Source of the DNA: Trypanosoma brucei
Taxonomy: Eukaryota
DNA length: 64,000 nucleotides
Assembly (NCBI GenBank): GCA_000002445.1
Contig: CM000208.1
Coordinates: 1,952,001-2,016,000, forward strand
Direction of reading: 5' to 3'
The notes under the pieces: model-generated
Databases searched by the model: none
What the model saw: only the letters and a program-made list of their open reading frames with translations
What the model was told of the DNA's origin: nothing
Translations under genes and position numbers: made by a program
In this document: positions 7,193-64,000 of the stretch, in pieces
Layout: each line of letters starts with the position of its first letter
How positions within the stretch are numbered: the stretch's first letter is position 1

Positions 7193-7619
7193 TCTGCTGG
7201 GAAGGGAAAGGAAAAATAAAAATAAAAACCAAGGCACCCCACCTGCGAGTAGCGTACCGTTCGACTAACTACAGCTCTGCTGCTACTTTCCGCGGCGTGA
7301 AGCAGTTATCAAAACGGGAAAAAGGTGGAGAATTGATGAGTAGAAGTAGAAAATAATGACAGCAATGCAACGTCTGTGGCGCAGGAGTGTGAAGGTGTGC
7401 ATTATCAACGCATTAGTCATTCCTTCCATCACATTCACACTTGGTGTTCACCATGTCTTTGTGAAAGGTGCCACCTTAAATTCCAAAGGTTCTTCTTTGT
7501 TATATCATTGTTTTTTTTCTGAGGGGGTATATTTCCCCTCTTTCCCTTTCCTTCTTTTAACCTCCGTTCCCCCCTCCTTCTGTGCAACACAATCTAAAAC
7601 CCCCCCAGTAATTGAATAG

Positions 7620-7644
7620 TATATATATATATATATATATATAT
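7620..7644. repeat. (TA)12 microsatellite
   Basis: atatatat... read directly in the intergenic region. Confidence 0.9.
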
Positions 7645-8243
7645 CTGTTTGATGGAAAAGAACAAAACTTCCCACCAATGTCCTCTCTTGTCCAAACGTC
7701 TCCCTTTTTTTTTTCTTGTCTCCAATGAGTTGGCAGTGACTCCACTAGTTAGTAAACATCCCAAGGATGCATACGCCCCTGCTTGGTAAAATCGGTTCCG
7801 ACCAGCACATTATTGCATTTGTAACATGAGGTGCAGACACCTTCTTTGTGCTTGCCGCCTCAGTCACTTCAATTCCTTCACAGTCGCGGCCGCACACACC
7901 CACGCACACGTACCCTCCACTCGAAATTGCACCGCCCCCGCGCATTCTCTTTTATTACGTGTCACGCAAATAAGGCATGCGAGACAGCAATCCTACGGTG
8001 AGGAATATATGTATATGTGCGGAGGCGTCTTCGCGGCCCCGCTTTCTTTAAATACATGTAAGTGTTACTTTACCCCGGAGGTGATTAGAGGTGACATGGA
8101 AGCAAGCCACTCCCGTCAACTTAACCCAGCACACGTGCAGCATTTTTGCTTTAATACCTCGCTCTGCCCTCCCTTCCCACCCTTCTCCTTGTTTCATACG
8201 ACTTTCTTTCCCTTTCCGTTTGCTTGGTACGCATGTTCTAACC

Positions 8244-9899: not shown

Positions 9900-10175
9900 T
9901 AGCAAAAATTTCTAACAAGAATAAAGAGATTAGTATGGCCGCTGTAGTAAATGCTGTGTTAGTTATGGGAAGGTTCACTCCTAAACAGGGGACACAAACA
10001 AAAAGAAAAGAAGCGGAAGGGGAATATCTATATTCGAAATGCATTCCCCTTTTCTTTCTCTTCGCGTGAATACAACGAAGGAACAACTTTCATCAGCGAT
10101 AACAAAAGCAGCAGTAGCATTAGACACAGTGACCTGTAGCCCCCCTTGAGTTCTCCACAACTCTAAGTGGACTAC

Positions 10176-11288: not shown

Positions 11289-12062
11289 CAGAGAAATACC
11301 CACCCTTGCACTCCCCTTCTACACGCATATACGTTAAAAATGCCAACAATAAAAGCGAATCAGATGAGAGTCAGGAGGGGAGGGGGGAAAGGGACGGCAT
11401 AGAGGGTTTGCAAATACTAGGGAGTTATTTCCATGCGTGAAACAATTTTATCCTCTTCAAGTGAGCACTTGCACACGAAACAGTGCATTCCAGGAGCAAA
11501 AACAAACCCGTCTGTGGTACGCACTTTTGCACGTGAGCGACCGCGCGACACCCCGCAACTGCAGGATGGTGAGAGGGTTCCTTCGGTTGCACTGATGAGG
11601 CCCACAGACGTCTACGCGGCACTTCAGCGGCATGTACTCAACGTAAAATACAAATGGAGTCGCCGTCTACGCCGCCTCCGGAACCACATCGGCAGTTGTA
11701 TAGACTTTGCTCCCGAGAAGCCTCTGAGGAGGTGTAGCGTTACATATCCATCAAATACCTCTCCCCTGCGTTTGCGGTAACACCAAATAATAATGATATC
11801 AACAATACATTGACCCTCGTGATGGTCATTGGTATTTCTTCAATCTGATCCTACATATCGCGACACGCAGCCACCACTCGGCCTACCTCAAATTACAGCG
11901 CATATGATCATGGGCGTGACCAACCGCCTCACCACACATGAGGGTGTGGAAAGGAAGGGATATGGGAAACAGAACCCCTTGCAGGATTTAAAAAAAAAGC
12001 GCTCTACACCGCCCTCTAATACGCTCCTTGCCCCCATCTGCACGTGGTGAATAGCGGGCCAC

Positions 12063-29192: not shown

Positions 29193-31280
29193 TCATGAAA
29201 ACAAATCATCCAGAGTTGACGCCTGTTGAACGACTGGTTTTGGCGGTACCGCTGGCAGACCGCCGCCGAGCAGGTCTTCGAGGGGATCCCTATGGCTGGT
29301 TGCAGCTGCTCCCGCTGCTGCATTATTTGGTCCCGCCGGCAACTGCGATGCCGCTGGTGGGCCGAAATCGAAGAGAGACGGTTGCGCAGCTTCGGTGCTT
29401 CCCACCTGTGGCTCACTGGACTGCGGCTCCGCTTCTTCATCTTCCTCTTCTTCATCGCTACCGTCCTCAGTGACGAAGCCGTAGGGTGGGAGAAACGACT
29501 GGGCGGGTCTTGCGAATACCGCTGCAGCTGTGTTGATAGACTTTAATAAATCTCCCATTGTCATAGCATCGCTGAATGTGGACTCCACGGCAACTGCAGC
29601 ATGGTGTCCATGGACGATCTCTTTCATCTTGGCCACGCCAATACCTTTGGAAAGCAGCCGCCAGTATGCATAGGCGCGATCGCGTATATCGGGGTCACTG
29701 CTTTGTGTTGTCAGTGCGTCAAGCACAGTGTTGAGGGTCGGCTCCATTCCCTGAGGATCGCGCAAAAACATCTTGATAACGGCACTAAGGATACTCAATT
29801 GAACTGGTGGCTCATGCAGCATGAGTTCCTCAATGTATTTTCGAATGATGTCCATCCCGTTTTCAACAAATTCACAGAACTCACCCAACATCCAAATGAG
29901 TGACACTTTCGCCTCCTCTTCCACTACGCCGTCCGCCCCGCACTCCGAGATTAGAGTGCCCAGCACAAGCAACTTTGGGTACTTGCGGGTGATATTTTTG
30001 CAGCTTGTCACCACCTGTGGCAGCAACTCGGGGCGGTTTTTAACAATACGCAGCAACAGAGCCACACAGCTCTGCGCAACTGAGTCAATCTTAAGTGCGA
30101 GCTCGGCTATTCCCTTCACCACCTCCTCGACAAAGAATGGATCCACCTCGGTGCTGTATTCCTCCAGCTCTTTCAGGATGCCATTTGCTGAGGAATTGCT
30201 GACGAGCTTGAGCAGGAGTCGCAACTTCTCCAGCTTTACGTATGGTGGGTCCGAGAAGCGAACGTAGAAGGAATCCAGGTTGTTAATCAGAAGGTTAGGG
30301 AATATGACAAGCAGGGCGTGAATGTTCTTGCACACAACGTACTGTGCCTCGGGATCGCCTCTCGACAGTGTCACGAGGGCTGAGTTAATCCGCACGCCAA
30401 CCTCATTTACTGTGCTTTGACCACAGTGAGGTAAGTAGTTGATGATGACTTTGATGGCTCCCATGACAACAGACTGGTTTGTGTGATTGGTCTGCAGCAT
30501 AACGCGCGAGACAACATCCTCTGCAAATCTATCGTCGCCCGGCCGGGTGCAAGAAACAAGCTCCAAGATGTTGAGTTGCCCCCACTCTGTGGTTCCAGGT
30601 ATCTGGTCCAGCAAGTGCATAATGTGGTGACGCTCCAACACAATTGGAGTCCCGCCGTTGCTGTTGACCTCCATCACCACGGCGGCCGCATTGGAGACAA
30701 CAACGGCAGCTTTATCAGTCAGCAATTTTAGAAGCTCCGTGCTGAAGCCCTGATCCTCGTATAATTGTCTGCTGTTGTGGAACAGCTTTCCTATACCAAT
30801 GACTGCGTTCTTGCGAACATACGGATCCAAGTCATTGACAGCGCGACGGAGGGGCTCCAGTGTATACTCCGTCACGGAATCCACACGCACGCACATCATC
30901 GTTCGCACGGCGAGCGCCCGCACGACTGGTGAAGGGTTGGTTGTGTCTTGAAGAAATGTGTTGACCGCCATGAGAGCCTTCCCAGGCTGCAGCTTCGCGT
31001 TACTGAGAACGTATAGGTAAACCAACTTCTTAAGCTCAAGATTTGTCGTCTGCCCGAGTTTCACGACATCCATGAAGAGATGGCTCACGTCACGGCCCAT
31101 CGTCATTCCGGCGATAATGCGTTTCACGGCGTTCTTTTGGCGCGACTTATCATTGCTGTTAAGCTCATGTTGCAGCGCCGTTCCCTCTCCGCGCCACGCG
31201 GTGTTGAAAAACTTTGAGCCACCGCCGCTGTGCCGGAAGTTCTGTTTGAGCTTTTCCACCTTGCGAAGAACCGCTTCCAT
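29193..31280 (-). CDS. Adaptor protein complex beta subunit (AP-1 beta-adaptin-like)
   Basis: 695-aa ORF with a verified ATG. Strong similarity to beta-adaptin trunk motifs: NAVKRIIAGMTMGRDVSHLF, LELKKLVYLYV and VVRALAVRTM. It lacks the appendage/ear domain. Confidence 0.8.
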   Translation of the reverse strand: MEAVLRKVEKLKQNFRHSGGGSKFFNTAWRGEGTALQHELNSNDKSRQKNAVKRIIAGMTMGRDVSHLFMDVVKLGQTTNLELKKLVYLYVLSNAKLQPGKALMAVNTFLQDTTNPSPVVRALAVRTMMCVRVDSVTEYTLEPLRRAVNDLDPYVRKNAVIGIGKLFHNSRQLYEDQGFSTELLKLLTDKAAVVVSNAAAVVMEVNSNGGTPIVLERHHIMHLLDQIPGTTEWGQLNILELVSCTRPGDDRFAEDVVSRVMLQTNHTNQSVVMGAIKVIINYLPHCGQSTVNEVGVRINSALVTLSRGDPEAQYVVCKNIHALLVIFPNLLINNLDSFYVRFSDPPYVKLEKLRLLLKLVSNSSANGILKELEEYSTEVDPFFVEEVVKGIAELALKIDSVAQSCVALLLRIVKNRPELLPQVVTSCKNITRKYPKLLVLGTLISECGADGVVEEEAKVSLIWMLGEFCEFVENGMDIIRKYIEELMLHEPPVQLSILSAVIKMFLRDPQGMEPTLNTVLDALTTQSSDPDIRDRAYAYWRLLSKGIGVAKMKEIVHGHHAAVAVESTFSDAMTMGDLLKSINTAAAVFARPAQSFLPPYGFVTEDGSDEEEEDEEAEPQSSEPQVGSTEAAQPSLFDFGPPAASQLPAGPNNAAAGAAATSHRDPLEDLLGGGLPAVPPKPVVQQASTLDDLFS

Positions 31281-31289
31281 TTTCCCGAA

Positions 31290-34200
31290 GTTTCAACGTG
31301 AGTGAATGCACTGTCACCACCCTCACTTAACGTCACAAACCAACAGCAAAAATATAAAATGTGAAAGGAAAGAAGCACAACTGGTTTCTTAACTTTCCTT
31401 TACTACGTCCCTTACTCCTTTCTTCCTTGTTTCTAAAATACGTTGTTCTCGCTTTTCTTCCTCGATGCTTTCTCTGCCTCTTTTTTTTTTGTATACTTTT
31501 TGTTATTTCAGAGCCCTCAAGTGCCTGGTAGCAGAAAAAGGTGTGGAAAGGGGGAAAAAGAAAATGGAAAAAGAAGAGAGCGAACGAAAGATGAATGGTG
31601 CGAGAAACAGATAACCTCAATAATAATAATAATAATTATTATTATATATATATATATAATTCCCACAAAATAATTAACAGTCATGAAAAGTGGGTATTGA
31701 CCACATTTGGACCTCTCTTGGAGAACTTACAAACACTCAGTCAAGGGCGAATTCGCTGATTCAATCATTTTCTTTTTTTTTTTGTTTTCTTAATAACTCT
31801 AAATGAGGCATGAGAATTTGGAGCAAATGTAACAAACGAGCAGAAGACTTATCATTGAAATACGCAATGAGAAGAAGATAAAATAAGATATAAAATTAGA
31901 TAAGGTGAAGCGAAATGAAAGTGAAACAACATAAAAGATGAAAACAAAGAATGGGAAAAAAGAAGAAAAGAAAAACAACGGTCCCTTTCCTTAAAAACTT
32001 TTCCCACTGAGCAATGCACGCATATGCCACTTTTTGTGCCTGAGCTCCGCTTTCCTCAAAACGATCGATTACACTCTCAAGTAATAAATCTTAATTAAGA
32101 TAAAAGGTAAGAAGTAAAACGGAGAAAAAAAAATAAAGAAAGGAAAATTCATGAAATCCGAGGGGGAAACAACCAAAAATAAATAAATAAATAATCAAAA
32201 CAAATAAAACGCATGCGCACGCACTTTAAAATGAAAATATAAGTGAGAGGGAGGGATGATATCACAACAAGATGCATAAAAATATATATGCAGAGATAAG
32301 TGAGTAAATAATAAAATAAAGTGAAGTTCCCTCTGCATCAATTACCTTTTTCTTTCTTTCTTTCTCTTTTTTTCTTTTCTTTACTCTTCCGATCGATCAC
32401 TTGAATTCGCTAAATCATGACATGCCACATCATATTACGTTATGCTTCATTATTTTTGTGCCATTTGGTACAGGTGCGCATAACTAAAAAGTGACGTATG
32501 AAAAACGGTTCCGTCACGGCGGCAGCGGCAAAAAAAAAAAAAATACAATAAAAACAATAACGACAACATCATCACCGTAATTAACATCTTCACCGCTGAC
32601 CCACATAAACACATAAACACAAATATATTCATTTTCGCTTTATTTCAGTTATATTTACACATGACTGTGTGAGAGAGAAAAAAAAAAGAATGGCGAAGTT
32701 GTGAAAGCAACAACAGACCGCATAACTTGACAGCACTTATGATCGCTACTACCAATCAGAATAACAATAATAGCAACAATATAATATGATGATAAGACAA
32801 ACAAATCAAGGAAACCACTGACACGCTGCAAGATGAGAGGAATGGAAATGAATGAGTAGTAAACTAAATGCGGATGAGTTAAAGGAAAATAAGACAACAA
32901 TAACAAAATGTATTTGTCCTTTTCCTCCTCCTCCTTTTCACTCTCCGCTTAAATCATCCCTTTTCACCCCTGTTTTCACGCTGCCTTGAAATACCTTCAG
33001 ACAACATTCAAAAAAAAAAAAAAAAGAAATCAAACGATAGAAAAAGAAAAAAAAACGTGAAATAAAGTGAAGCGTTGACAACGGAGTTGGTGTAGAATGA
33101 AACAAACAAATAAATAAATGAGGTGCAGCCACTTGCGATAACTAAAATTATTAAACACAAGGTGCACAAAGAAAAACATGATAATAATAATAAAACACAG
33201 AAGCAAAAACGAACGAACGAACGAACAAACAAATAAAACATTCATAAATATACCAATGGGTATGAGCACTTTCAGCCGTTAGTTTATTTGATATTGATAT
33301 TTAATGGGAAATAACACACACGGCCACATTTGTACATTTACATATTATCTTATTTTCCCTTTGTGTACGACGATGCGTTTTGGAAAAACGGACAGCGCAA
33401 TAATGAGGGAGAGTAAGTAAAAATATATATATATAATAATAATAATAATCAAAAAAGAAAGACACAGAAGCAACGACGCACCAAGAGCGATCACTTTTAA
33501 TTATTTGCTTCTTTTTTTTTTTTGCCTTTCTTCAGTTACTTACTTATACATTCACTGGTGTATGAGGGGAGAAAGATAACATAAAATCAACAGAACGACA
33601 GCAACGAATATAAACATGCAAAAGCATACAAACAAAGTGAAGCAACATGTATTTGCCTGTGGTAATATTGAAAATGATATCATTATGATTGTTTACCATT
33701 TCCTCTCTTTATAATTGTAATTATATATATATATATATATAAACCCGTTTCGTCTTAAAGGAAAAAAAAAGAGGTATGGCTGAAGTCCCTTTTTTCCCTC
33801 ACGTGCACAAACGGCTCTCCCGTAAATTTAAAAGAAATAAATTAAGATAAAATGACTGGATGGAAGACTGACGACACGGCCCACACGGTAGATAGTTACA
33901 AACATAAATATAAATAAAACAAAACGAGAACACCAGACTCCCAAAATGGAATACGACCATACAAATAATAAAAGTAATTATATAAAATAAACGAAAATAT
34001 AGAAAAGCATATATATATATATATATATATATATTACATTTGTATATTTATCTTTCTTCTTTTTATAGAAACAAAATATCGAAAAGGAGGGGAAGGGAGG
34101 GGAAATAAAAGGAACATAAAGTAGGACTTAAGAAACGAATGGCAGCATTAAGAATCAAAACGAAACAATAAAAAGAGAAGTGAAAACGGAATTTTAACAA

Positions 34201-34900
34201 CTGCGGGCTAATAAAATCTAAAAAAAAGTGTCATATCGGTGGGAATGAGCGAAGCTTTTCCGCACATGTGAAAACAACTAAAATAATAATAGTAATAAAA
34301 GGAATAATAACAAAAGTAATAATCCTGAAACAAACAAAACCAAAGAACGGCCATAACAAAACAAAAAAAACACAGAAAGAGCGTGTGGACACGTATATGT
34401 GAGGGGGCGAAAATAAAATAAAAATAAATTACCCTCCTCTCATCCCTTCACATTTTTTTTCTTTTCCTCACGGGTCGGCCCATGCACTGAGCCGCACTCG
34501 ACTGTTACGGGAAGAAGAGGGGAGTGTGAAACTAGCAGACAGATAATAATAACAAATCAACAACAACAACAGCAATGGGGTTTCCGTGCCGTAGCCCCGT
34601 GCCCATAAATTGTGTGTTTGTGTGCGTGTGTCTGGAACAACGCACAATAAATAACTCCTCGGTGTTGGGCGCGGTGGCGAAACAGTGTACAACAAGGAAT
34701 ATAAATCAACATATAAGCAGATTGACAAAAAAAAAAAAAAGAGCAACGAAAGGAGAGAACCAAGAAGGAAACCGGGCAGCAATGGTGGCGCGGCGGCGGG
34801 GGGGGGGTGATAAAAGCATCCACCTCAATGCGCTTTATTTCCACTTTAAGTCCTTCGCCCTTCTTCCTGGAAAACATCTCTTAAATTCCCTCATTTGCCA
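31290..34900. other. 3.6-kb AT-rich, gene-free low-complexity island within a unidirectional gene array
   Basis: No ORF longer than 110 aa on either strand. Dense A-runs of up to 16 are seen, as are (TA)n, (AAT)n, (GAAC/GAAA)n and (AAATA)n microsatellites. The minus (transcribed) strand is T-rich. Both flanking genes are on the minus strand. Confidence 0.7.
31540..31632 (-). promoter_or_regulatory. Polypyrimidine tract plus AG trans-splice acceptor region upstream of the AP-beta gene
   Basis: Minus-strand reading: ctgtttctcgcaccattcatctttcgttcgctctcttctttttccattttctttttccccctttccacacc, followed by AG dinucleotides about 250 nt upstream of the ATG at 31280. Confidence 0.5.
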
Positions 34901-34903
34901 ATA

Positions 34904-35704
34904 TCAACGGACTAACAGATTCCACCGACGCTTGGCTTCCACCAACTTGTTGTGACGTCGCTTGTGTAACGGTTCCATGCCCCCATCCACTTCGTTTGTT
35001 TTATCGTAACCGTACATGCCCTCCCTTACAATAAGGCAGTAGCAAAGCATCATGTCGCCATCATCGGTGGGCACTTCTCTCTGTTCCAACCGGTGCGAGG
35101 AGCGGATGAACTCTGGGACTGTAAGGTTTGTATCGTGACGGCGGCGCTCCACGAAGTCGCGAAGAAGTCCCAAAATAGCTGACAGTGTGTGATCTTCCAG
35201 CTCCCCTCCCACGTAGTCAGCAACCAAGACGCCGTTTTGCTCAAAACCACGGATGGAGTCGGGTGTATTCTCGAAAACAATCGTCGTTGCAACGTCACGG
35301 CCAAGCAGCGAAAGATCCTTTGCTGTGGATCCACCGCGAAACCAATCGCTGCTGCGGTAAATCATGTGGTGCACTGCATTGTGTCTATCAATATGACGGA
35401 CCACCGCCTCCGCGTAGTGCTTCATGCCGGCTGTCCAAAGTACCGTCTCGCAGTTTTCGTCCAGGAACTGCAGCAACTCCTCCAGTCCGGGGCGTACGTA
35501 AAGGGGTCCTTCACGGGCGTACACGAGTGTTTCGTCAAGGTCCAATACAATGGTGGGACGGTCTGCTAGTCGTTTGTCTTTCGGCGCGATGAGAGCTTGA
35601 GTTGCGGACGATTTTGGGCTGCCGCGGCAACCCGCGCACGAGAGGTCGTTGCAGGCGTACTCTTGCCGGAAACTGAGGCCACGCACTCGCTGAACCCGCG
35701 GCAT
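34904..35704 (-). CDS. NLI-interacting-factor (NIF)/CTD small phosphatase-like HAD-family phosphatase
   Basis: 266-aa ORF with a verified ATG. The catalytic DxDxT motif is present in IVLDLDETLVY, and the downstream fold is FCP1/SCP-like. Confidence 0.7.
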   Translation of the reverse strand: MPRVQRVRGLSFRQEYACNDLSCAGCRGSPKSSATQALIAPKDKRLADRPTIVLDLDETLVYAREGPLYVRPGLEELLQFLDENCETVLWTAGMKHYAEAVVRHIDRHNAVHHMIYRSSDWFRGGSTAKDLSLLGRDVATTIVFENTPDSIRGFEQNGVLVADYVGGELEDHTLSAILGLLRDFVERRRHDTNLTVPEFIRSSHRLEQREVPTDDGDMMLCYCLIVREGMYGYDKTNEVDGGMEPLHKRRHNKLVEAKRRWNLLVR

Positions 35705-54709: not shown

Positions 54710-57700
54710 CTAGAAAGTAAACCTGGAACTGGCACGATTCAGGGCAAGGTTGCACTGTTCGAGCAATCCCTCCGCAGCGCTCAATGCCCGGATACTGCGT
54801 TCATCACCGGGTTGGATGGCGACCTTGCTGATGCCCTCGCGCACCGTGTTTAGAGCGTTACCTAGAAAGTACATCTGAACGGAGCTGATGTGCGAAGCGA
54901 ACACCGCACGATGAAGAGCGGCAGCTAGCGAATGCACTAAGAACGCATCAGTAACTGCAGATTGGTCAAATGTTTCACAAGGAGCGGTAAGAAAGTCCCT
55001 TTTATCAAAAATCGCGGCGATCGTCGAGAATATTACGTTGTGCTCCACACCACAGTCGTAGAGAACGTCCACGGTCAGTGTGGACCCTTCAGGTGACCGC
55101 TGGAAGGCATATGCTTCCAATATCTTGACCACATGACACAGGGGAGAGGCGATCGTACGCATGCACTTTCCAATAACCCGCCTTGCTATCTCTTCCACAG
55201 TCGCATCTTTCCGCTGGAAACAGCGGTCGATGCACGCGGCGTGAAGCGATGAATCGGTCACGTTGGCCGCGTTCAGGACATCAAGTTGGACCTCCGCTCC
55301 GCCGTATGCGCAGAACATACCCGCAACTTGCAGCAGCTGAACAGTAGAGAGAACATGGTTCTCCACCATCTCCATCTGTTCCAATGCAATTTGCCGTTCC
55401 GTCATGAGACCCCGGCCATCCACTGCAACTCGCCTATCGAGATGAGAATGTCCGCTGTTGATAAATTCACAAATGATTTTAGACAGGTGAAGCTGTGCCT
55501 CCATTAACCCTATGCGCTGCTCAAGACTTTTGAGTTGATCTGATTTTGACTCTTCAGCGCTCCCCTTCGCCTCAGCCAGGCAGCGAAGCCTGTAGGAAAT
55601 TCGTTCTTCTCTTGGAATTCCTGTTAGCGGTGCGTGAACGACAGAAGCACAAACTTCGATGGCAAGGGCATGATTTTTTTTAGTCTTTCGCAAGTATCGA
55701 ACATATTGCTCCCCCAGAGTCGATATGTTGCGTTGAAGATACGCCTCGATAAATGGGGAATGCGCGGCCACTAACGTCTCTCTAAGCATTGCCTTGATGT
55801 GTGCATCGTCACGAGGCAAACACAACCAGTCGAATAGGTAACAATGAGCCAATTCGTCCGTAGGCTCGATCTGCCAGATAGCGCCGGAGGACAAAGGACC
55901 CCCAAGAAGGCCATCGACAGTACTACGGTGTGTGTTCCAAGCGTTCTCCAGAGTGCTGACAACCTCACCCAGCACCTTTAACTTCTGTTGGTAGGTGGAA
56001 CCGACAGCTGAGCTCACTGCCTGATTCAGATTGCCGCTTCTCTCCGCCAGGTAGGTCTTGAAAGCGGAGTTATTCGGATCCAATTGACACGCAGCGTGGA
56101 GTAGGAGTTTGACAGCAGTGCCCTCCTTTTTAAGCGCCCTCAGTTGCTGACATATATCAAGCAACGCCCCGGAGTACCACAATGAAGCGGCCATGACAGA
56201 GACAGATGATTCCCACTCTGCCATTTTACCCTCTGGAAACGCGTGGAAGTTTTCTCCATTGGCGGACAGTAACCTCTCAAGTTCGACCCGCACATTGTAT
56301 TCTTGCACATCGATGGAGTTGAAAAAGTACGGGCACTCCAGCTGCAGTTGCATCACTGAACCAACGCCGTCCTGCGGCAAATAACCTGCGCCCTTTTCGG
56401 AGGAAAGCACCACTTTTCCAACGTGCCGCGCCATGCGGTGTGCCACTGATTGGTCGCTCACAATTTGTGCTACTGTTACCTTACCATCTTCCGCCATTGG
56501 CGGGACGGCAGCCGTCTGTTTCAGAAATTTGATTGTCTGTAAGACTCGCTCACATAAAGTGTGAGAGGAGCACAGAAGCGCAGACTGCAACATCTTGATG
56601 TCGTATGATGATATCGACGACCGATGGGGTGGAAGCACCAGCGTTACCTTTCCTTTGTCCCACTGGAACGGTACAGCCGGCTGGACAAATTTGTCGGACC
56701 ACACGTCTCTCTTCAGGCTGTTCAACAATCGAACTACAGAGGAGAGTGCCGTTTCCACAACCGCCAATTCACGCATTGTAACACCTTCCAACGCCGTATT
56801 CCACACGGCGTAGAGAGCCCTTGAAATATATGCCAAAACGCCCGAGGCGAAAGGCGATACTTGAACGACAATGTGGCGGGTACCGTCGTCGGGGCCTGGT
56901 CCTTCATACCAACTCGGCGCCATTGCACTACGGAGTATCTCACGTGCAATTCTCTGAACCTCTTGAGAGGGCGTTTCGTTCAGCTGGCGGCCTAATTGCT
57001 CTACCGACAGAGGAATCTGTGACTTGCCGTTACCCTTCCCTGCCGGAGAAAAGGATGCGTTTGCATCACCTCTCTCGACGTATGGACCATCTACTGTGAC
57101 CGGCACATTCGTGCAACCAACAGCAATTTGTACAAGCATACAGCAATAGTCCGACGCGCTATAAATAGAAGAAAGCCGTTGAAGGAGACTGTCACGCACT
57201 TGTTCGCTTGACGACGCGATTATCATGTGGAGTGTATCCACGGGTCGGAGTTTTATGAAAGTTGAAACTCCATGGCGATGAAGAAAAACAAACTGCCTTG
57301 GGGAACATGAAACCTGAGAGCACAACTCGTTGGGACTCACACCGCCTTCTACGGGAACCTCAGAAATAGCGTCAACTCGTGTCATGCATGTTGCTTCTGG
57401 CTCAAACTGGGCGACGATGTCACGACAGTTGTGATGCGGCTGCAATATCCCCTTGTGTGAAGAAGCCACAGTCACAGAATCGGGCGAATAACCTCCTTCC
57501 GACTTTTCTGCGTGGCATACAACTGAGATTCCTTCGGAAGCAAAGCAAACGGTAACCTCACGGCCTTGGGGAATGTACGACCCCAAGCTCTCGCGCAGGG
57601 AAAGACTAGCGTCGGCACCACCCCACAAACCGTCTTGGCAGACATAGCGGTACTGTTCCCCATTAGCTGCAACGGCAATAAGCGAACAGCTGTCATCGGA

Positions 57701-58687
57701 TGACGTAGCGCAAAATATCCTGGCAAGTTCAACACCCGCTCCTCCCGACCACACTGATGTCCGATTGGTTCCCCCCAAAGCCCCCCCTCTGACTGTGGCC
57801 AGCTGACTTAGGCCATCGTTCGTTATCCTCCACAATGAAATTGTGCTCTCAGAATTCAGGGTAAACAGGAGCTTACGCTTCGCCTCTATGGCGACGTCGC
57901 GCAGTGCAGGTCTCTCTTTCGCCCATGTCTGTTTAATCGCACTGATCAATGAGCTTACGGCTCCCAGAACCGGAACACTACCAAACATTAGTGAACAATT
58001 AACGAGCCTAAGTTTCGGAAGGAAAGCTGTGTCCTCCTTTGCGTACTTAACCTCGTAGAGACACCCATCTGCGCCTGCAGCAAAGATCCTACCCAGCTCT
58101 TTGACACCAACAAGCTTTGTAAAGAGCGCCGGTGCCATCACAGAGAATCCAAGGCTCACCACGTAGAGTTCCGCCTTCTTCAAAGGACCACCTCCAAAAA
58201 CACATAACCCCAGTAGATGAACTGCTTTTGGGGTTGACACTGGGAGAACATAGGTGATGTGAGCTTGAAAAACGCCGGCAATGGGTAAGACGGGGGTTCC
58301 AACGGCTACGATAAGCTCAGGCACTTCATCGAAGAGAAAGAAGTCCCTCCCCGTCCCAAAATTCCACAAAAGCAGCTTGTTGTCAATCGTTATCCATGCC
58401 CTTGAAAGTTCTGGGAATAGACCAACAGTGGAATTCGCCCTGAATGTTTTCCACACGGCCTTGACAGCTTCCGGCCAAGTTACCCCCGTTAGTGGAAGAA
58501 ATGCCGGAAGCGTGGAAGACGTGTCAAATGTGGTGAGAGCAAATGGGTGGGAAGAGACGTGACCGCATGGCGAAATAGTGTTGTCTTTGCTAATCGCAGC
58601 GGAACGGATCTCCGCACTGATAATTTCCTCAACTGCTCTCTTTGTGGCGTCCTCTATCCTACTCGGGTTATCATCTCGTACTTCCAT
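54710..58687 (-). CDS. Nucleoporin Nup155/Nup170/Nup157-like (beta-propeller plus alpha-solenoid scaffold nucleoporin)
   Basis: The track start is GTG at 58771, and the first ATG is at 58685-58687 (MEVRDDNPSR...), giving about 1325 aa. The N-terminal signature GLFPELSRAWITIDNKLLLWNF matches the Nup155 family motif GLFPEIxRAWxTIDNxLFLW. The size is consistent with a kinetoplastid Nup144-type protein. Confidence 0.6.
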   Translation of the reverse strand: MEVRDDNPSRIEDATKRAVEEIISAEIRSAAISKDNTISPCGHVSSHPFALTTFDTSSTLPAFLPLTGVTWPEAVKAVWKTFRANSTVGLFPELSRAWITIDNKLLLWNFGTGRDFFLFDEVPELIVAVGTPVLPIAGVFQAHITYVLPVSTPKAVHLLGLCVFGGGPLKKAELYVVSLGFSVMAPALFTKLVGVKELGRIFAAGADGCLYEVKYAKEDTAFLPKLRLVNCSLMFGSVPVLGAVSSLISAIKQTWAKERPALRDVAIEAKRKLLFTLNSESTISLWRITNDGLSQLATVRGGALGGTNRTSVWSGGAGVELARIFCATSSDDSCSLIAVAANGEQYRYVCQDGLWGGADASLSLRESLGSYIPQGREVTVCFASEGISVVCHAEKSEGGYSPDSVTVASSHKGILQPHHNCRDIVAQFEPEATCMTRVDAISEVPVEGGVSPNELCSQVSCSPRQFVFLHRHGVSTFIKLRPVDTLHMIIASSSEQVRDSLLQRLSSIYSASDYCCMLVQIAVGCTNVPVTVDGPYVERGDANASFSPAGKGNGKSQIPLSVEQLGRQLNETPSQEVQRIAREILRSAMAPSWYEGPGPDDGTRHIVVQVSPFASGVLAYISRALYAVWNTALEGVTMRELAVVETALSSVVRLLNSLKRDVWSDKFVQPAVPFQWDKGKVTLVLPPHRSSISSYDIKMLQSALLCSSHTLCERVLQTIKFLKQTAAVPPMAEDGKVTVAQIVSDQSVAHRMARHVGKVVLSSEKGAGYLPQDGVGSVMQLQLECPYFFNSIDVQEYNVRVELERLLSANGENFHAFPEGKMAEWESSVSVMAASLWYSGALLDICQQLRALKKEGTAVKLLLHAACQLDPNNSAFKTYLAERSGNLNQAVSSAVGSTYQQKLKVLGEVVSTLENAWNTHRSTVDGLLGGPLSSGAIWQIEPTDELAHCYLFDWLCLPRDDAHIKAMLRETLVAAHSPFIEAYLQRNISTLGEQYVRYLRKTKKNHALAIEVCASVVHAPLTGIPREERISYRLRCLAEAKGSAEESKSDQLKSLEQRIGLMEAQLHLSKIICEFINSGHSHLDRRVAVDGRGLMTERQIALEQMEMVENHVLSTVQLLQVAGMFCAYGGAEVQLDVLNAANVTDSSLHAACIDRCFQRKDATVEEIARRVIGKCMRTIASPLCHVVKILEAYAFQRSPEGSTLTVDVLYDCGVEHNVIFSTIAAIFDKRDFLTAPCETFDQSAVTDAFLVHSLAAALHRAVFASHISSVQMYFLGNALNTVREGISKVAIQPGDERSIRALSAAEGLLEQCNLALNRASSRFTF

Positions 58688-58888
58688 CCTTTCTTTGCGC
58701 TTACCAACAAAAACCTTAACAAATATCCCGGCTAAGAAGACAGCATTAACGAGAAGAGGGGGAAGGTCCACAAAGACTACTCACAGGCGGAGATCCACCC
58801 ACATGCACACAAAAAAGGAGAAGAGCACTCATGCCGGTCAAAATCTGTAACTTTCGTGTTCCATGTTCTTCCAGCAAATATTAGGGTT

Positions 58889-61800
58889 CTAAAGCAGCCG
58901 CTCCAAGGAGACGTCAGTATCCGAGTCGGGTTCGGGTTCGTTTAGAAATTTCTTGTAGTCAACAGACGATGACAGAAACGAAGGATCACCCGCCAGCCTC
59001 TCAGACTTTGCAGTCAGTGAATTCTTGGGATTGCACATGTCCTCTCGCTGTGGCGTCCCGGTGGAAGATCCACCGGTCCCGGCAGCGGTCGGGGGCCGCC
59101 GACGAGAAAAACGCATGGCCGAGGAAGTTCTTGCAGCAGGCCCAAGCACCATTGAAGTCGAACCCCTTGATGCAACCCGACCCTCGAGGGCCGCGCCCCG
59201 ATGGTTGAAAGCCACAACATCACCGGTGGCAGTTGGTCGCCAGCGACGTGACAACCGCGTCGATGAGGATCCTCTGGCACTCAAAATCGAACGCCTGGAA
59301 GTCGCCACCGGCGAACATGACTGACAACTGGTGCCGTCTGTTGAAGGTGGGGCGTGAGCAAACAGAGCATCGGAGGCAATACCACTTGCCGATGATCTGT
59401 GCAATATTGGTGCTGTCGAAGACGCTCGTTCAACTGATGTTGAAGCCCTAGAGCTCATTGGCATCGGCCCCACAAAGGCACCACTGGCACTTTTACCCTG
59501 CTGGAGGGGGACGGGTGCCTTAGCGGCGGCAGCGGCATCAGTTGGCGAACATCTATATAGCACACGCGCAGGTGGAGAACTTCTGCCAACAGGAACCGAG
59601 GCCCTGGTAGTGGGAACCTGTGGTGCCGTGCGAGGTCCTGCAGCTGACGATAGTCGATTGGGAAGAGGTGATTGACCCGCCATCACTGATGAGTACCGGC
59701 TCGGCACGCGAAGTGGCGGAGGCGGCCTTCCGCCTGGTGTTGGGGCCCTGGACGCCAGCTGCTGGGGCGCTACCGATTCAGAGGTGTGTACTGTTGACAC
59801 GTTGGCCGCGTTCAAGTGCTCAACGGTGGTGGCGCCTTGGCCACTCGGCTCCACGTTTGGTGCCACTGTCTCGTTTTCCGTGGTGGTTGGGGCACCAGGA
59901 ACATGATCCTGCAACACGGGTGATTCTCCACCGTTCACTTCTGACGGGTGTACTGTAGAAGCAAGACCACCACTGGCGGTTGTTGGGGACTTGTATCGCA
60001 CACGCGCAGGTGGAGAACTTCTGCCAACAGGAACCGAGGCCCTGGTAGTGGGAACCTGTGGTGCCGTGCGAGGTCCTGCAGCTGACGATAGTCGATTGGG
60101 AAGAGGTGATTGACCCGCCATCACTGATGAGTACCGGCTCGGCACGCGAAGTGGCGGAGGCGGCCTTCCGCCTGGTGTTGGGGCCCTGGACGCCAGCTGC
60201 TGGGGCGCTACCGATTCAGAGGTGTGTACTGTTGACACGTTGGCCGCGTTCAAGTGCTCAACGGTGGTGGCGCCTTGGCCACTCGGCTCCACGTTTGGTG
60301 CCACTGTCCCGTTTTCCGTGGTGGTTGGGGCACCAGGAACATGATCCTGCAGCACCGGTGATTCTCCAGCGTTCACTTCTAGTCTGACAACAGGTGCATG
60401 GTCCGCAGTCGTTAAGGGGCGCTGACGTAGTTCACGTACGGCCGGGGATCTCCTCCCACCTGAGGTTGAGGCCCTAGACACTAGAACCCTTGGCGTTAAG
60501 CGGTTGTCCACGTGTGGAGTCGACGAACTTGGAGCGGGAGGATCGGCAACACTCGGGTTACCTTCCACAAGTTCTTCGACAATGGGCACCAGACTCCTAC
60601 CATTGTCTGATGCAGCAGAGACTAAAAGTTGCGAGCTTGAAAGACTGTTTGCAGCACCTGGAGGCGGCCTACTAAGCATCGTAACACCGGTAGCGGCATC
60701 GGTCAATGATAATGTGCACGAATCCTGGAGAACTGACGAATCTTTTTCTAAGGAGTTAGAAACCACTGAGACCTGCGTCTGACTGGTCACGCGTGTTCGA
60801 GTGTTCGCCTTCATCCGGCTGGAGGTAGGCTGTTGGGTAGCGAAGACTGATGATTGCCGACGTAACACCCGCACCGCCGGGGGCCCTCTATCACGTGGGG
60901 TTGAAACCGCGGGGGCCTCGGTGTGCGCTACCTCGCGATTGTCCGCGCTTGCAGCCCCGATGTCGGGTCCGAAAGCATTTTCGTCAATAGGGACAGCTTG
61001 AGGGGAGCCTGAAAACAGCCTAGGAGTCACGGCATTCGTTGAAAACAGGGTTTCCTGTGAAACTTCACTTCTGTCTTTATCGTCTGTTTCGTCCGTTGCC
61101 TCTCTCTCCGAAGCAATATCTGCGTACGTATTGGCAAAGCTTTGTTGTATCAGAGACGTATTCGGTGTTTGACCATCCTGAAGCGTAAGTGTGAGCGCGC
61201 TCTGAGTAACTTCCGGAAGTTGCTTATCCTCCCCGGCGGCGCTTGCCGCCGTCTCATAATGAAAAGAGTTCATGTACGGCATGAGACTTCCGTTGGCATG
61301 GATTGACGAACCCCCATGCCCCCTTTCTGGGTAAAAGGAATCGTTTGGGCCATTGTCGCCGACAAAGTAGCCGCGCTCGGTGTTCACGCTTGCGTCCACT
61401 AACAATTTAGCGTTTTCTGGTGCTTCGCTACTTATGAAGATAAGTGGCACATCACAGCCACGTCGCAAGTATATTAACTTGTGCACGCATCTGAGGGTCC
61501 TCGTGTCGCCAAAAAAAACGTCAGTTATGGACCCGTGATTACCCCGAATACGGAGTACGTTCTGGTGGAGCTCCACTTGAAGGTCACAAAGCGGGAACTC
61601 GGCCAAGCGGGTGCGTGACATGAAGGTGAGGAAAACCAACGAGGCTCTTTCGAACATGAGGGCACCCTGGACACAACCACTGCTCTCTTCATGCGTCGAC
61701 GTCGTAACGTTGGTGGTTAACCGAATGTTCTCGGTAAATAAGATACTATGGGCACAGCGGAGCTCAGCTGCAGACAGGCTGTCTGTGCGGCTCATCTCAA

Positions 61801-62500
61801 CGTCGTCCACCTTGTGCTGCTGCTGCTGCTGCTGCTGAGACTTCAGTTCCTTCTTTGCCTCATAAAGCAACTCTTCAAGATGTTTCACGCGCTCTGTCAT
61901 GCGTTCATACTCCATGGTACTAAAGCACTGTGAATTTTCCACGCTAGTTTGGTTGGGTGGCACTCTGATTATTACTGACTCCCTGCGTTCCTCCAAGGCA
62001 TGATCAATGGTTTTGAAGGTGCCCCGCTGGGCCGGTGACTTCCTGCGAGCTTTCTTACATGCCTCAATGATTTGGAGATACTCCTCTTGTGAGCGAACCC
62101 CAACCTCCAGTTTCCAGCCATAACTTACGGCCAGTGCTGCATGGTAACCCATAGCCCGCGCCGTGTCATATTCCTGAGTTGTAACGGGCACGCCATCGAT
62201 GGTAGTGACCGAAAATCCAACTGCGAGGAGCACCATTACGCGGTGAAGTGGGTGGGCTGCGATGGGATTCCCCTCCAGGTCAATAACAAGCAGCGACGGC
62301 TGCCTGGTTAGACCCATGAAACTCTCAATCATGTTGTTTTCAAGCCGTAGCTCGAGCAATTTGGGGTGCGTGCCGAAGTGCTCAAAGTTTTGGAGGCAGT
62401 TGTCACGGAGGTCAATCGAAACGTAGTCATACCCTTGGTCTTTGATACCCCAGAAGGTGGTTATTTTCTCACCACGGGCATCCAGACGCGACCCGCTCAT
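58889..62500 (-). CDS. Leucine-rich-repeat protein with a long Ser/Pro/Thr/Ala-rich low-complexity region containing a 146-aa tandem duplication and a polyQ run
   Basis: The track start is TTG at 62518, and the first ATG is at 62498-62500 (MSGSRLDARGEK...). LRR-like N-terminus: LELRLENNMIESFMGL...LLVIDLEGNPI. Residues about 700-1000 are two near-identical copies of ESPVLQDHVPGAPTTTEN...SSPPARV. There is a QQQQQQQ run. Confidence 0.55.
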   Translation of the reverse strand: MSGSRLDARGEKITTFWGIKDQGYDYVSIDLRDNCLQNFEHFGTHPKLLELRLENNMIESFMGLTRQPSLLVIDLEGNPIAAHPLHRVMVLLAVGFSVTTIDGVPVTTQEYDTARAMGYHAALAVSYGWKLEVGVRSQEEYLQIIEACKKARRKSPAQRGTFKTIDHALEERRESVIIRVPPNQTSVENSQCFSTMEYERMTERVKHLEELLYEAKKELKSQQQQQQQHKVDDVEMSRTDSLSAAELRCAHSILFTENIRLTTNVTTSTHEESSGCVQGALMFERASLVFLTFMSRTRLAEFPLCDLQVELHQNVLRIRGNHGSITDVFFGDTRTLRCVHKLIYLRRGCDVPLIFISSEAPENAKLLVDASVNTERGYFVGDNGPNDSFYPERGHGGSSIHANGSLMPYMNSFHYETAASAAGEDKQLPEVTQSALTLTLQDGQTPNTSLIQQSFANTYADIASEREATDETDDKDRSEVSQETLFSTNAVTPRLFSGSPQAVPIDENAFGPDIGAASADNREVAHTEAPAVSTPRDRGPPAVRVLRRQSSVFATQQPTSSRMKANTRTRVTSQTQVSVVSNSLEKDSSVLQDSCTLSLTDAATGVTMLSRPPPGAANSLSSSQLLVSAASDNGRSLVPIVEELVEGNPSVADPPAPSSSTPHVDNRLTPRVLVSRASTSGGRRSPAVRELRQRPLTTADHAPVVRLEVNAGESPVLQDHVPGAPTTTENGTVAPNVEPSGQGATTVEHLNAANVSTVHTSESVAPQQLASRAPTPGGRPPPPLRVPSRYSSVMAGQSPLPNRLSSAAGPRTAPQVPTTRASVPVGRSSPPARVRYKSPTTASGGLASTVHPSEVNGGESPVLQDHVPGAPTTTENETVAPNVEPSGQGATTVEHLNAANVSTVHTSESVAPQQLASRAPTPGGRPPPPLRVPSRYSSVMAGQSPLPNRLSSAAGPRTAPQVPTTRASVPVGRSSPPARVLYRCSPTDAAAAAKAPVPLQQGKSASGAFVGPMPMSSRASTSVERASSTAPILHRSSASGIASDALFAHAPPSTDGTSCQSCSPVATSRRSILSARGSSSTRLSRRWRPTATGDVVAFNHRGAALEGRVASRGSTSMVLGPAARTSSAMRFSRRRPPTAAGTGGSSTGTPQREDMCNPKNSLTAKSERLAGDPSFLSSSVDYKKFLNEPEPDSDTDVSLERLL
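59560..60391. repeat. Near-perfect tandem duplication with a 438-bp period (two copies of about 394 bp separated by a 44-bp divergent junction) inside the LRR-protein coding sequence
   Basis: Segments 59560-59953 and 59998-60391 are identical apart from a handful of substitutions. The two plus-strand track ORFs (59620..59958 and 60058..60387) have the same first 97 amino acids. Confidence 0.85.
61815..61838. repeat. (CTG/CAG)7 trinucleotide repeat encoding polyQ in the LRR-protein gene
   Basis: tgctgctgctgctgctgctgctg on the plus strand, which is CAG on the coding strand. Confidence 0.9.
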
Positions 62501-63483: not shown

Positions 63484-64000
63484 TTAATCATCATCTCTTG
63501 CCTGATCCGGACGATTTTTCGGACCGCCAGCTTGCTTGGCAACGATAATTTGGTTCACTTGAAGCACCGTCACAACAGCTTCCGTTGCCAGATTAATTGC
63601 CCAGTATTTTGTTAGATACGGCTCAACAATACCAGCCTCCAAGGAGTCGATTGTTGTGCCATCCTCTACACCAACCCCATTGTGCACCTTGCCGGCGTTG
63701 TGGTCAATCTCGAGCTGAGTTACAACATCTGTTCCATTAAAACCACTAACTTCTGCTAGTGTACGGGCCACTACCTCGAAACTGGAAGCAAATTTGTGAA
63801 TAGCGTACTGGTCAAGACCAGGGCTTGTCTCGGCGAACAACTTCAGCTTTCTTTGGAGTTCCATCTCGACGGCCCCCGCACCGGCTACGAGGCGCTTGTC
63901 CTTGGTAAGGGCCTTGAAAACGTTGACGCCGTCGTCAATGGCCCGTTCAACATCGTCAAGAACGTTTTTCGTTGCTCCACGGACGACAATAGTGGACAAC
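63484..64000 (-). CDS. T-complex protein 1 (CCT/TRiC) chaperonin subunit, C-terminal fragment; the N-terminus lies beyond the window end
   Basis: The ORF is open to the window edge. It has chaperonin equatorial-domain motifs: VVRGATKNVLDDVERAIDDGV, the nucleotide-sensing loop LVAGAGAVEMEL (the group II chaperonin GGGAxE-type motif) and the IVEPYLTKYWAI helix. I cannot assign the subunit identity. Confidence 0.8.
   Translation of the reverse strand, partial: LSTIVVRGATKNVLDDVERAIDDGVNVFKALTKDKRLVAGAGAVEMELQRKLKLFAETSPGLDQYAIHKFASSFEVVARTLAEVSGFNGTDVVTQLEIDHNAGKVHNGVGVEDGTTIDSLEAGIVEPYLTKYWAINLATEAVVTVLQVNQIIVAKQAGGPKNRPDQARDDD

What the first reader, a model, noticed from the sequence alone, without database searches (positions are those of the whole stretch)
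59560..60391. Near-identical 438-bp tandem duplication inside a protein-coding gene (146-aa Pro/Ser/Thr/Ala-rich protein repeat)
Two copies differ by only a few nucleotides over about 394 bp, which suggests very recent duplication, gene conversion or ongoing copy-number variation. Trypanosomatid proteins with tandem amino-acid repeats are frequently immunodominant B-cell antigens. Repeat copy number often differs between strains and is often under-represented in assemblies. The synonymous-level identity is far higher than in the rest of the gene.
Basis: seen in the sequence. Interest (0 to 1): 0.5.

Follow-up and report, generated by a model that had tools for sequence, protein, structure and literature searches.

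The report
Two-copy in-frame repeat in Tb927.10.8180
A real 438-bp head-to-tail duplication lies in the disordered tail of an uncharacterised intracellular Trypanosoma brucei protein; it doubles a conserved phosphorylated motif, is older than the T. brucei subspecies, shows exchange between its copies and possibly varies in copy number, but it is an ordinary kind of feature and nothing marks it as a surface antigen.

Summary
A 438-nt period covers 59556-60380 (1.9 copies). The duplicated core is 383 nt (59998-60380 and 59560-59942, 379/383 identical), joined by a unique 55-nt linker. It is in frame on the minus strand in Tb927.10.8180 (1203 aa, 'hypothetical protein, conserved', T. brucei TREU927 chr 10).

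It is not an assembly artefact. T. equiperdum OVI and one T. b. gambiense DAL972 contig carry the same two copies, the same linker and the same three copy-specific substitutions. The duplication therefore predates these taxa and is not 'very recent'.

Differences between copies cluster in the first 72 nt. A linked two-base variant sits in both copies (927), one copy (equiperdum) or neither (gambiense). This needs at least one gene conversion between copies.

A second DAL972 contig has exactly one copy and differs by 2 SNPs. This is a likely one-copy allele, but a collapsed repeat cannot be excluded.

The unit carries the family's conserved Pro-rich/basic motif, and a phosphosite (S798) maps inside it. 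T. grayi and T. vivax orthologues have their own tandem repeats in the same tail.

The protein has no signal peptide, transmembrane segment or GPI signal, and its N-terminus is an LRR plus a PH-like fold. The antigen idea is untested and weakly grounded. Interest is low.

The parts
58889..62500 (-). CDS of Tb927.10.8180 (1203 aa plus stop at 58889-58891), 'hypothetical protein, conserved', T. b. brucei TREU927 chromosome 10 (XP_823052.1 / Q38AE6)
   Evidence: ORF. 100% match to P0001. Gene ID fixed by eight published phosphosites that all fall on S/T of this ORF and by the neighbours Tb927.10.8170 (TbNup144) and Tb927.10.8190 (CCT-theta).
59998..60380 (-). Repeat copy 1 (N-proximal), 383-nt core, about aa 707-835
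59943..59997 (-). Unique 55-nt linker between the copies (about aa 835-853, core sequence YKSPTTASGGLASTVHP)
   Evidence: Identical in 927, T. equiperdum and gambiense contig B. No other source in the window. Only marginal similarity to the sequence after copy 2 (p about 0.04-0.09).
59560..59942 (-). Repeat copy 2 (C-proximal), 383-nt core, about aa 853-981
60074..60169 (-). Conserved family motif GRPPPPLRVPSRYSSVMAGQSPLPNRLSSAAG in copy 1 (aa 778-809). Contains the published phosphosite S798 (60107-60109).
   Evidence: An HMM of the single C-terminal motif of 7 stercorarian orthologues hits here over its full length (6.1 bits; 3/2000 shuffled tails reach it). Phosphosite from the supplement of PMC11408851. 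Coordinates.
59636..59731 (-). Same motif in copy 2 (aa 924-955). The equivalent serine is S944 (59669-59671).
   Evidence: The tryptic peptide is identical in both copies, so the S798 assignment is ambiguous between copies.
60839..60871 (-). Older degenerate motif-like stretch RVLRRQSSVFA (aa 544-554) outside the duplication, phosphorylated at S550/S551
   Evidence: weak HMM hit, -2.5 bits. The related P0003 has RVLRRSSSAF at the equivalent place.
62153..62488 (-). N-terminal SDS22/U2A'-type leucine-rich repeats with cap (aa 5-116)
   Evidence: phmmer against PDB: LRGUK 1.3e-4, T. brucei CFAP410 N-domain 8axj 1.9e-4, SDS22 1e-3. Foldseek: U2A' 1.7e-5, 8axj TMt 0.56. Pfam LRR families are below their gathering scores.
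61460..61771 (-). Predicted seven-strand sandwich plus C-terminal helix (aa 244-347), PH/EVH1-like fold
   Evidence: AF2 model, pLDDT about 74-83 over aa 280-350. Foldseek hits to PH and EVH1 domains, E 2e-3 to 8e-3, TMt about 0.6. Tentative.
58892..58933 (-). Conserved acidic C-terminal tail EPDSDTDVSLERLL with phosphosites S1193, T1195, S1198
   Evidence: DSDSD tails occur in all orthologues.
54710..58771 (-). Downstream neighbour TbNup144 (Tb927.10.8170). The ORF as listed starts at GTG; the annotated protein is shorter.
63484..64000 (-). Upstream neighbour, C-terminal part of CCT-theta (Tb927.10.8190); runs off the window

Best explanation
This is a genuine in-frame tandem duplication (copy - 18-aa linker - copy, period 438 nt) in the long disordered C-terminal half of Tb927.10.8180. 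The protein is intracellular, with an N-terminal LRR, a coiled coil and a PH-like domain.

Shown. The two-copy structure arose before the divergence of T. b. brucei, T. equiperdum and T. b. gambiense. At least one non-reciprocal exchange (gene conversion) has moved sequence between the copies, and differences between copies are confined to the 5' 72 nt. The unit is translated and phosphorylated.

Likely but not proven. Unequal recombination or single-strand annealing between the copies produced a one-copy allele that is heterozygous in DAL972.

Inferred. Each unit carries one copy of the only linear motif conserved in this protein family's tail (PPxRVPxRxSS...PxPxRLSS). The duplication therefore raises the number of phospho-regulated docking motifs and lengthens the tail by 146 aa. 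The effect on the cell is probably modest.
For: The repeat is real and in frame.

The same two copies, the identical linker and the same copy-specific bases at core positions 12, 25 and 29 occur in T. equiperdum OVI and in DAL972 contig B. OVI is a de novo Velvet assembly of Illumina reads.

All four combinations of (copy-1/copy-2 type at 12/25/29) x (CA/TG at 60/62) exist: 927 has CA+CA, equiperdum CA+TG, gambiense TG+TG. That is incompatible with a tree without exchange between copies, unless two linked substitutions recurred.

Differences cluster. All 4 (927) or 6 (equiperdum) lie in the first 72 of 383 nt, with P=1.2e-3 and 4e-5 under uniformity. The other 311 nt have 0-1 differences, including synonymous sites.

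DAL972 contig A lacks exactly 438 nt. It is copy-1-like at its 5' end, joins directly to the sequence downstream of copy 2, and differs from contig B at two further sites downstream.

Phosphosite S798 lies in the unit. The family-motif HMM hits aa 778-809 and 924-955.

Orthologues in seven stercorarian species are only 578-645 aa and have one motif. T. grayi (84 nt x 2.0, 98%) and T. vivax (135 nt x 8.5, 96%) have their own arrays in the same tail.
Against: The conversion inference rests on one pair of linked sites in three genomes. The tract in 927 would have to be 42 nt or shorter.

The 0-1 differences in the 311-nt part are by themselves compatible with a duplication shortly before the subspecies split. 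About 1.4 differences would be expected from 0.3-0.6% orthologue divergence.

The one-copy DAL972 contig could be a collapsed Sanger assembly of a two-copy allele.

The origin of the 55-nt linker is unresolved.

The motif hit is weak (6.1 bits). No experiment links motif number to function, and localisation data were not found.
Confidence: 0.7

Rival explanations
1. Neutral expansion. The duplication is a selectively irrelevant length change of a fast-evolving disordered tail, produced by replication slippage or unequal recombination. The motif is carried along by chance.
For: The C-terminal half (aa 680-1203) has no detectable relative outside the T. brucei group among 1.84 billion representatives, so constraint is low. 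A one-copy form apparently coexists with the two-copy form in one clone. Two of the four differences between copies in 927 are non-synonymous.
Against: The unit contains the best match in the whole protein to the only tail motif conserved across the genus. That motif region is phosphorylated. Independent tandem amplification over the same motif occurred in T. grayi.
Confidence: 0.4
2. A single, fairly recent, error-prone event in the common ancestor of the T. brucei group, for example microhomology-mediated or break-induced template switching. It would have created the duplication, the 55-nt junctional filler and the cluster of substitutions next to the junction in one step. No old duplication and no long-term homogenisation would be needed.
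For: The linker has no significant similarity to either flank or to anything else in the window. The three fixed differences lie within 29 nt of the junction. The remaining 311 nt are no more diverged than expected for a duplication just older than the subspecies.
Against: This does not explain the CA/TG variant appearing in either or both copies in different taxa, so at least one later exchange between copies is still needed. The linker aligns end to end with the 50 nt after copy 2 slightly better than chance (p about 0.04), hinting at an older full 438-nt unit.
Confidence: 0.2
3. The repeat makes the protein an immunodominant tandem-repeat B-cell antigen, possibly on the surface.
For: The TRF score of 1615 would pass score-based screens for tandem-repeat genes. 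Many trypanosomatid tandem-repeat antigens are intracellular cytoskeletal proteins (own knowledge: Goto et al. 2011 BBRC, K39, GM6; that paper is not in the searchable library).
Against: There are only 1.9 copies of a 146-aa unit, not the many short copies that cross-link B-cell receptors. There is no hydrophobic N-terminus, no C-terminal GPI-type hydrophobic tail and no transmembrane segment; the one hydrophobic window, aa 88-106, is the conserved LRR cap. The domains are of cytosolic type. No paper mentions the gene in its main text.
Confidence: 0.08
4. Assembly artefact: the TREU927 reference wrongly contains two copies of a single-copy segment.
For: Near-identical repeats of this size are a known source of assembly error. 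The DAL972 assembly is indeed broken here.
Against: Two further assemblies made from other isolates with other methods carry two copies with the same linker but their own SNPs. The copies differ at fixed positions.
Confidence: 0.02

Closest known systems
Trypanosomatid tandem-repeat (TR) antigen genes (e.g. Leishmania K39 kinesin, T. brucei GM6/FAZ and MARP proteins; own knowledge)
   Same: An in-frame, near-identical, head-to-tail repeat inside a trypanosome protein-coding gene. It has a high Tandem Repeats Finder score and causes trouble in assemblies.
   Different: Only 1.9 copies of a long (146-aa) unit rather than many short units. There is no serological evidence, and the protein is an uncharacterised LRR/PH-like phosphoprotein.
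Intragenic tandem repeats undergoing concerted evolution and copy-number change by unequal recombination (e.g. yeast cell-wall gene repeats, Verstrepen et al. 2005; own knowledge)
   Same: The period is a multiple of three, so the frame is kept. The copies are homogenised by exchange between them. The candidate loss allele lacks exactly one period.
   Different: Minimal array (1-2 units). Intracellular protein. The unit carries a conserved phosphorylated linear motif rather than a structural or adhesion repeat.
Orthologues of Tb927.10.8180 in T. grayi, T. theileri, T. melophagium, T. cruzi, T. c. marinkellei, T. rangeli, T. conorhini and T. vivax
   Same: For the four loci read (T. b. gambiense, T. 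equiperdum, T. vivax, T. grayi), the same position between CCT-theta and Nup144. In all orthologues, the same N-terminal 350 aa (49-51% identity in the named Trypanosoma orthologues), the same Pro-rich/basic tail motif and an acidic DSDSD end.
   Different: The seven stercorarian proteins are 578-645 aa; six carry one motif, and T. grayi carries about 2.5. The T. brucei tail is about 600 aa longer and carries the 438-nt duplication. T. grayi (84 nt x 2) and T. vivax (135 nt x 8.5) have unrelated periods, so these are independent events.
SDS22 / U2A' / CFAP410-N type LRR-cap domains
   Same: The N-terminal aa 5-116 match by sequence and by predicted fold.
   Different: Only about four repeats. 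Pfam LRR models are below threshold. The rest of the architecture is unlike any of these proteins, so this is a shared domain class, not orthology.

Membership tests
In-frame intragenic tandem duplication | Head-to-tail copies with no intervening gene, and a period divisible by three that preserves the reading frame | tested here: met
   Period 438 = 146 codons, no indels. A single ORF reads through both copies. Annotated as one 1203-aa protein.
In-frame intragenic tandem duplication | Present in the organism, not only in one assembly | tested here: met
   Two copies in T. equiperdum OVI (de novo Illumina/Velvet) and in DAL972 contig B, each with its own SNPs. No raw reads were available.
Repeats under concerted evolution (gene conversion between copies) | Variants shared between paralogous copies within a genome but differing between genomes, or four-gamete incompatibility between copy-specific and strain-specific sites | tested here: met
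   Sites 60/62 are CA+CA (927), CA+TG (equiperdum) and TG+TG (gambiense), against fixed copy-specific sites 12/25/29. The test rests on only one informative site pair and three genomes.
Copy-number-polymorphic repeat | Alleles differing by whole units in natural isolates | tested here: inconclusive
   DAL972 contig A lacks exactly 438 nt and differs from contig B by 2 SNPs in 2076 nt. Collapse of a two-copy allele during Sanger assembly cannot be excluded without reads.
Trypanosomatid tandem-repeat B-cell antigens | Many tandem copies of the epitope-bearing unit | tested here: not met
   1.9 copies.
Trypanosomatid tandem-repeat B-cell antigens | Recognition by sera of infected hosts | not testable with these tools
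   No serological data found. The gene ID is absent from the main text of all searchable papers.
Surface / secreted protein | N-terminal signal peptide, transmembrane segment or C-terminal GPI-addition signal | tested here: not met
   Mean hydropathy of the first and last 25 residues is -0.87 and -0.86. The only 19-aa window above 1.6 is aa 88-106, inside the conserved LRR cap. This was a simple hydropathy scan, not a dedicated predictor.
SDS22-class leucine-rich repeat proteins | LRR units with an LRR cap recognisable by profile or fold | tested here: inconclusive
   Pfam LRR_4/LRR_8/LRR_9 score 13-15 bits against cut-offs of 27-30. However, PDB phmmer E is 1e-4 to 1e-3 and Foldseek E is 1.7e-5 to U2A'.
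PH-like / EVH1 fold | Seven-strand beta sandwich closed by a C-terminal helix | tested here: inconclusive
   The AF2 model was built from only 5 sequences: strands 259-330 plus helix 333-347, pLDDT about 74-83 over aa 280-350 (lower, about 50-58, over 259-279). Foldseek PH/EVH1 hits have E 2e-3 to 8e-3.

The most novel reading that the evidence does not exclude
The one linear motif conserved in this protein family's tail (PPxRVPxRxSS...PxPxRLSS, phosphorylated in T. brucei) has been tandemly amplified independently in T. brucei (146 aa x 2, plus older degenerate copies) and T. grayi (28 aa x 2-3). T. vivax (45 aa x 8.5) independently amplified a different, not detectably related, segment of the same tail. 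This could reflect selection on motif valency. For example, the proline-rich motif could be a ligand of the protein's own PH/EVH1-like domain or of a partner. Copy-number alleles such as the 1- and 2-copy forms in DAL972 would then tune assembly of a phospho-regulated scaffold.
Probability: 0.1. Interest if true: 0.45.

Novelty: new member of a known kind. Interest (0 to 1): 0.2.

Why it matters
As it stands this is a small annotation-level result.

- One uncharacterised, kinetoplastid-restricted phosphoprotein carries a two-unit repeat that is real, older than the T. brucei subspecies and subject to exchange between copies.
- The repeat breaks or collapses assemblies. The DAL972 gene is wrongly split into two 'fragment' models because of it.
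- It offers a simple PCR-sized marker (about 1.0 kb versus 0.56 kb) that may distinguish alleles in clonal T. b. gambiense.
- It points to the conserved Pro-rich/basic motif as the part of the tail worth mutating if anyone studies this protein.

It does not open a long-standing question.

Tried and rejected
1. A word-indexed homologue search with the C-terminal half (528 aa) returned nothing, not even the query's own protein.

2. An exhaustive HMMER search with aa 680-1203 found only the T. brucei cluster. No outgroup is therefore available to date the duplication or to say whether one or two copies is ancestral.

3. Origin of the 55-nt linker. Local alignment to the flanks gave p=0.085 (downstream) and 0.98 (upstream). 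Anchored alignment to the downstream flank gave p about 0.04-0.05, and to the upstream flank 0.87. BLAST of the linker against the window found only itself. The origin is unresolved.

4. Literature. The terms Tb927.10.8180, its guessed old IDs, the UniProt ID and the T. equiperdum ID occur in no main text. The TrypTag supplements held as text do not contain the gene, so localisation is unknown. The Goto et al. paper on African-trypanosome tandem-repeat antigens is not in the library.

5. Exact-sequence look-ups of P0001 and P0003 found no contigs. Lister 427, T. evansi and T. congolense DNA could therefore not be examined.

6. Pfam gave no significant family for the protein.

7. The plus-strand ORFs 59620-59958 and 60058-60387 are antisense by-products of the duplicated sequence. 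They were rejected as genes.

8. The T. vivax repeat unit gave no hit to the family-motif HMM. It is not claimed to be the same motif.
Full report
**Observation**

Tandem Repeats Finder reports a single array in the window at 59556-60380: period 438, 1.9 copies, 98% matches, no indels, score 1615. No other tandem repeat scoring at least 80 exists in the 64 kb. A 300-nt block is perfectly duplicated.

Comparing each base with the one 438 nt further on defines a 383-nt core, 59560-59942 versus 59998-60380. It has four mismatches (59871, 59914, 59918, 59931), and identity collapses immediately outside it.

The structure is therefore copy (383) - unique linker (55 nt, 59943-59997) - copy (383). 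It is not two full 146-aa units.

**What gene it is in**

The repeat lies in frame in a minus-strand ORF, 58889-62500.
- The ORF is 100% identical to the 1203-aa 'hypothetical protein, conserved' of T. brucei brucei TREU927 (XP_823052.1, Q38AE6) on a 4.05-Mb chromosome.
- The downstream neighbour is the Nup155-type nucleoporin TbNup144 = Tb927.10.8170.
- The upstream neighbour is a CCT subunit.
- A phosphoproteome supplement (PMC11408851) lists Tb927.10.8180 with sites S371, S388, S550, S551, S798, S1193, T1195 and S1198, and lists Tb927.10.8190 as CCT-theta. All eight positions are S or T in the window ORF, so the gene is Tb927.10.8180.
- S798 (YSSVMAGQS*PLPNR) lies inside repeat copy 1. The identical peptide occurs in copy 2 (S944). 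The repeat is therefore translated.
- The plus-strand ORFs at 59620-59958 and 60058-60387 are antisense by-products.

**Not an artefact, and not very recent**

T. equiperdum OVI has a 1203-aa orthologue with two copies. OVI is a de novo Velvet assembly of Illumina reads.

In T. b. gambiense DAL972 the gene is split into two 'fragment' models around a 100-N gap. Contig B (L001 9039-11786) has the same 438-nt, 1.9-copy array.

In all three genomes the linker is identical. Core positions 12, 25 and 29 (gene orientation) are C, G, C in copy 1 and G, C, T in copy 2. The two-copy structure therefore predates the divergence of these taxa.

**Exchange between copies**

Differences between copies are 4 (927), 6 (equiperdum) and 4 (gambiense B) of 383. 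In 927 and equiperdum all of them fall in the first 72 nt, with P=1.2e-3 and 4e-5 under uniformity. The remaining 311 nt, synonymous sites included, carry 0, 0 and 1 differences. In 927, two of the four differences are synonymous and two are not (A/G at aa 711/857, G/E at 731/877).

A linked two-base variant at positions 60/62 (ACC-ACG 'TT' versus ATC-GCG 'IA') is distributed as follows:

| Genome | Copy 1 | Copy 2 |
|---|---|---|
| T. b. brucei 927 | CA | CA |
| T. equiperdum OVI | CA | TG |
| T. b. gambiense contig B | TG | TG |

Together with the fixed copy-specific sites, all four 'gametes' exist. This needs at least one non-reciprocal exchange between copies, or two parallel double substitutions.

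The evidence is real but thin: one informative site pair in three genomes. The tract in 927 would be at most 42 nt.

By itself, the near-identity of the 311-nt part is not significantly lower than expected for a duplication just older than the subspecies. Orthologue divergence is 0.1-0.6%, giving about 1.4 expected differences.

**Copy number**

DAL972 contig A (L001 6001-8937) lacks exactly 438 nt.
- It is copy-1-like at positions 12/25/29 and joins directly to the sequence that follows copy 2.
- It carries A at position 229, like contig B's copy 2.
- It differs from contig B at two more sites downstream (gene nt 3096 and 3144), where contig B has private bases.

The simplest reading is that DAL972 is heterozygous for a one-copy and a two-copy allele. 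If the one-copy allele derives from a two-copy one, the crossover or annealing point lay between positions 29 and 229. A collapsed assembly of a second two-copy haplotype would look the same, so I rate this about 55-60% likely.

**Origin of the linker**

The 55 nt have no other source in the window and no similarity to the upstream flank (p=0.87-0.98). They have only marginal end-to-end similarity to the 50 nt after copy 2 (p about 0.04-0.09).

Two histories remain open:
- an old 438-nt duplication whose core has been homogenised while the edges diverged;
- a single error-prone event that inserted filler and clustered substitutions at the junction.

An outgroup would decide between them. However, the C-terminal half of the protein has no detectable relative outside the T. 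brucei group among 1.84 billion representatives.

**The protein**

Pfam gives nothing significant. The domains below come from sequence and fold comparison:
- Residues 5-116 match SDS22/U2A'/CFAP410-type LRR-cap domains (phmmer E 1e-4 to 1e-3; Foldseek E 1.7e-5).
- An AlphaFold model built from five orthologues has mean pLDDT 70. It shows about four LRR strands with a cap, helices, a long helix at 195-230, and a seven-strand sandwich with a C-terminal helix (259-347). This sandwich resembles PH and EVH1 domains (E 2e-3 to 8e-3, TMt about 0.6) and is tentative.
- From about aa 350 the sequence is S/A/P/T-rich and evolves fast.
- There is no hydrophobic N-terminus, no C-terminal hydrophobic stretch and no transmembrane segment. 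The only hydrophobic window is the conserved LRR cap.

**Orthologues and the motif**

A search with the N-terminal 370 aa found orthologues in T. grayi, T. melophagium, T. theileri, T. cruzi, T. c. marinkellei, T. rangeli and T. conorhini. They are 49-51% identical and 578-645 aa long, about half the T. brucei length. Where loci were read, the gene sits between CCT-theta and Nup144.

Their short tails share one motif, such as QPPSRVPRRRCSSVSVPVVPRRLSS, and an acidic DSDSD end.

An HMM of that motif from the seven species finds its best full-length matches in T. brucei at aa 778-809 and 924-955, once inside each repeat copy (GRPPPPLRVPSRYSSVMAGQSPLPNRLSSAAG). The score is 6.1 bits, and 3 of 2000 shuffled tails reach it.

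Weaker partial matches occur at RVLRRQSSVFA (aa 544-554, phosphorylated at S550/S551) and at GRSSPPARV (aa 826 and 972).

Other species have their own arrays in the same tail:
- T. grayi has about 2.5 motif copies created by its own 84-nt x 2.0, 98%-identical tandem repeat.
- T. vivax has a 135-nt x 8.5, 96%-identical array at the equivalent place. Single-base deletions in units 2 and 6 break the gene model. Its unit is not detectably the motif.

The tail of this protein has therefore acquired tandem repeats independently in at least three lineages.

**Mechanism**

Shown:
- A real in-frame duplication that is older than the T. brucei subspecies.
- At least one exchange between the copies.
- Translation and phosphorylation of the unit.

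Likely:
- Gain or loss of a unit by unequal recombination or single-strand annealing between the 383-nt cores.

Inferred:
- The functional consequence is a doubling of a conserved, phospho-regulated, proline-rich docking motif and a 146-aa longer tail.
- A neutral expansion is a serious rival (0.4).
- The antigen idea remains untested. Intracellular location does not exclude antigenicity in trypanosomatids (own knowledge), but 1.9 copies is not the multivalent architecture that makes such proteins immunodominant.

**Verdict**

The finding is real and correctly located. Its interpretation is partly right: conversion and possibly copy-number variation hold, whereas 'very recent' and the surface-antigen idea do not. 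It is a new, undescribed example of a well-known kind of feature in a published reference genome. Interest is 0.2.

Noticed in passing
L001 8938-9038 with flanking 6001-8937 and 9039-11786 (T. b. gambiense DAL972, FN554973.1): The DAL972 orthologue is annotated as two overlapping 'fragment' proteins (979 and 915 aa) on either side of a 100-N gap. The two contigs overlap by about 2.1 kb. They were evidently not merged because one has one repeat unit and the other has two.
   Followed up: yes
L003 5560-6709 (T. vivax, SOPI01000024.1): The orthologue carries a 135-nt x 8.5-copy array (96% identity). Single-base deletions in units 2 and 6 shift the frame, so the gene model ends early and a second model (6799-7335) holds the true C-terminus. 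These are probably long-read indel errors.
   Followed up: partly
L007 3045-3212 (T. grayi, JMRU01000118.1): An independent 84-nt x 2.0 tandem repeat (98%) duplicates the second half of the conserved tail motif in the T. grayi orthologue.
   Followed up: partly
window 61835-61837 (poly-Q run, about aa 221-227): The glutamine run is Q7 in TREU927 and T. equiperdum but Q6 in DAL972 contig A. This is a one-codon length polymorphism in the same gene.
   Followed up: no
window about 31400-34400: A stretch of about 3 kb has only 30-35% G+C and positive AT skew, against about 50% elsewhere. It lies between two minus-strand ORFs (29193-31280 and 34904-35704). It is probably a very long 3' UTR or intergenic region and contains no tRNA.
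   Followed up: partly
window 58892-58933: The acidic C-terminal tail (DSDTDVSLERLL) is conserved as DSDSD in all orthologues. It carries three published phosphosites (S1193, T1195, S1198) in a casein-kinase-2-like context.
   Followed up: partly
window 59620-59958 and 60058-60387, plus strand: Two near-identical 109-112-aa ORFs lie antisense to the repeat. They exist only because the sequence is duplicated and have no support as genes.
   Followed up: partly
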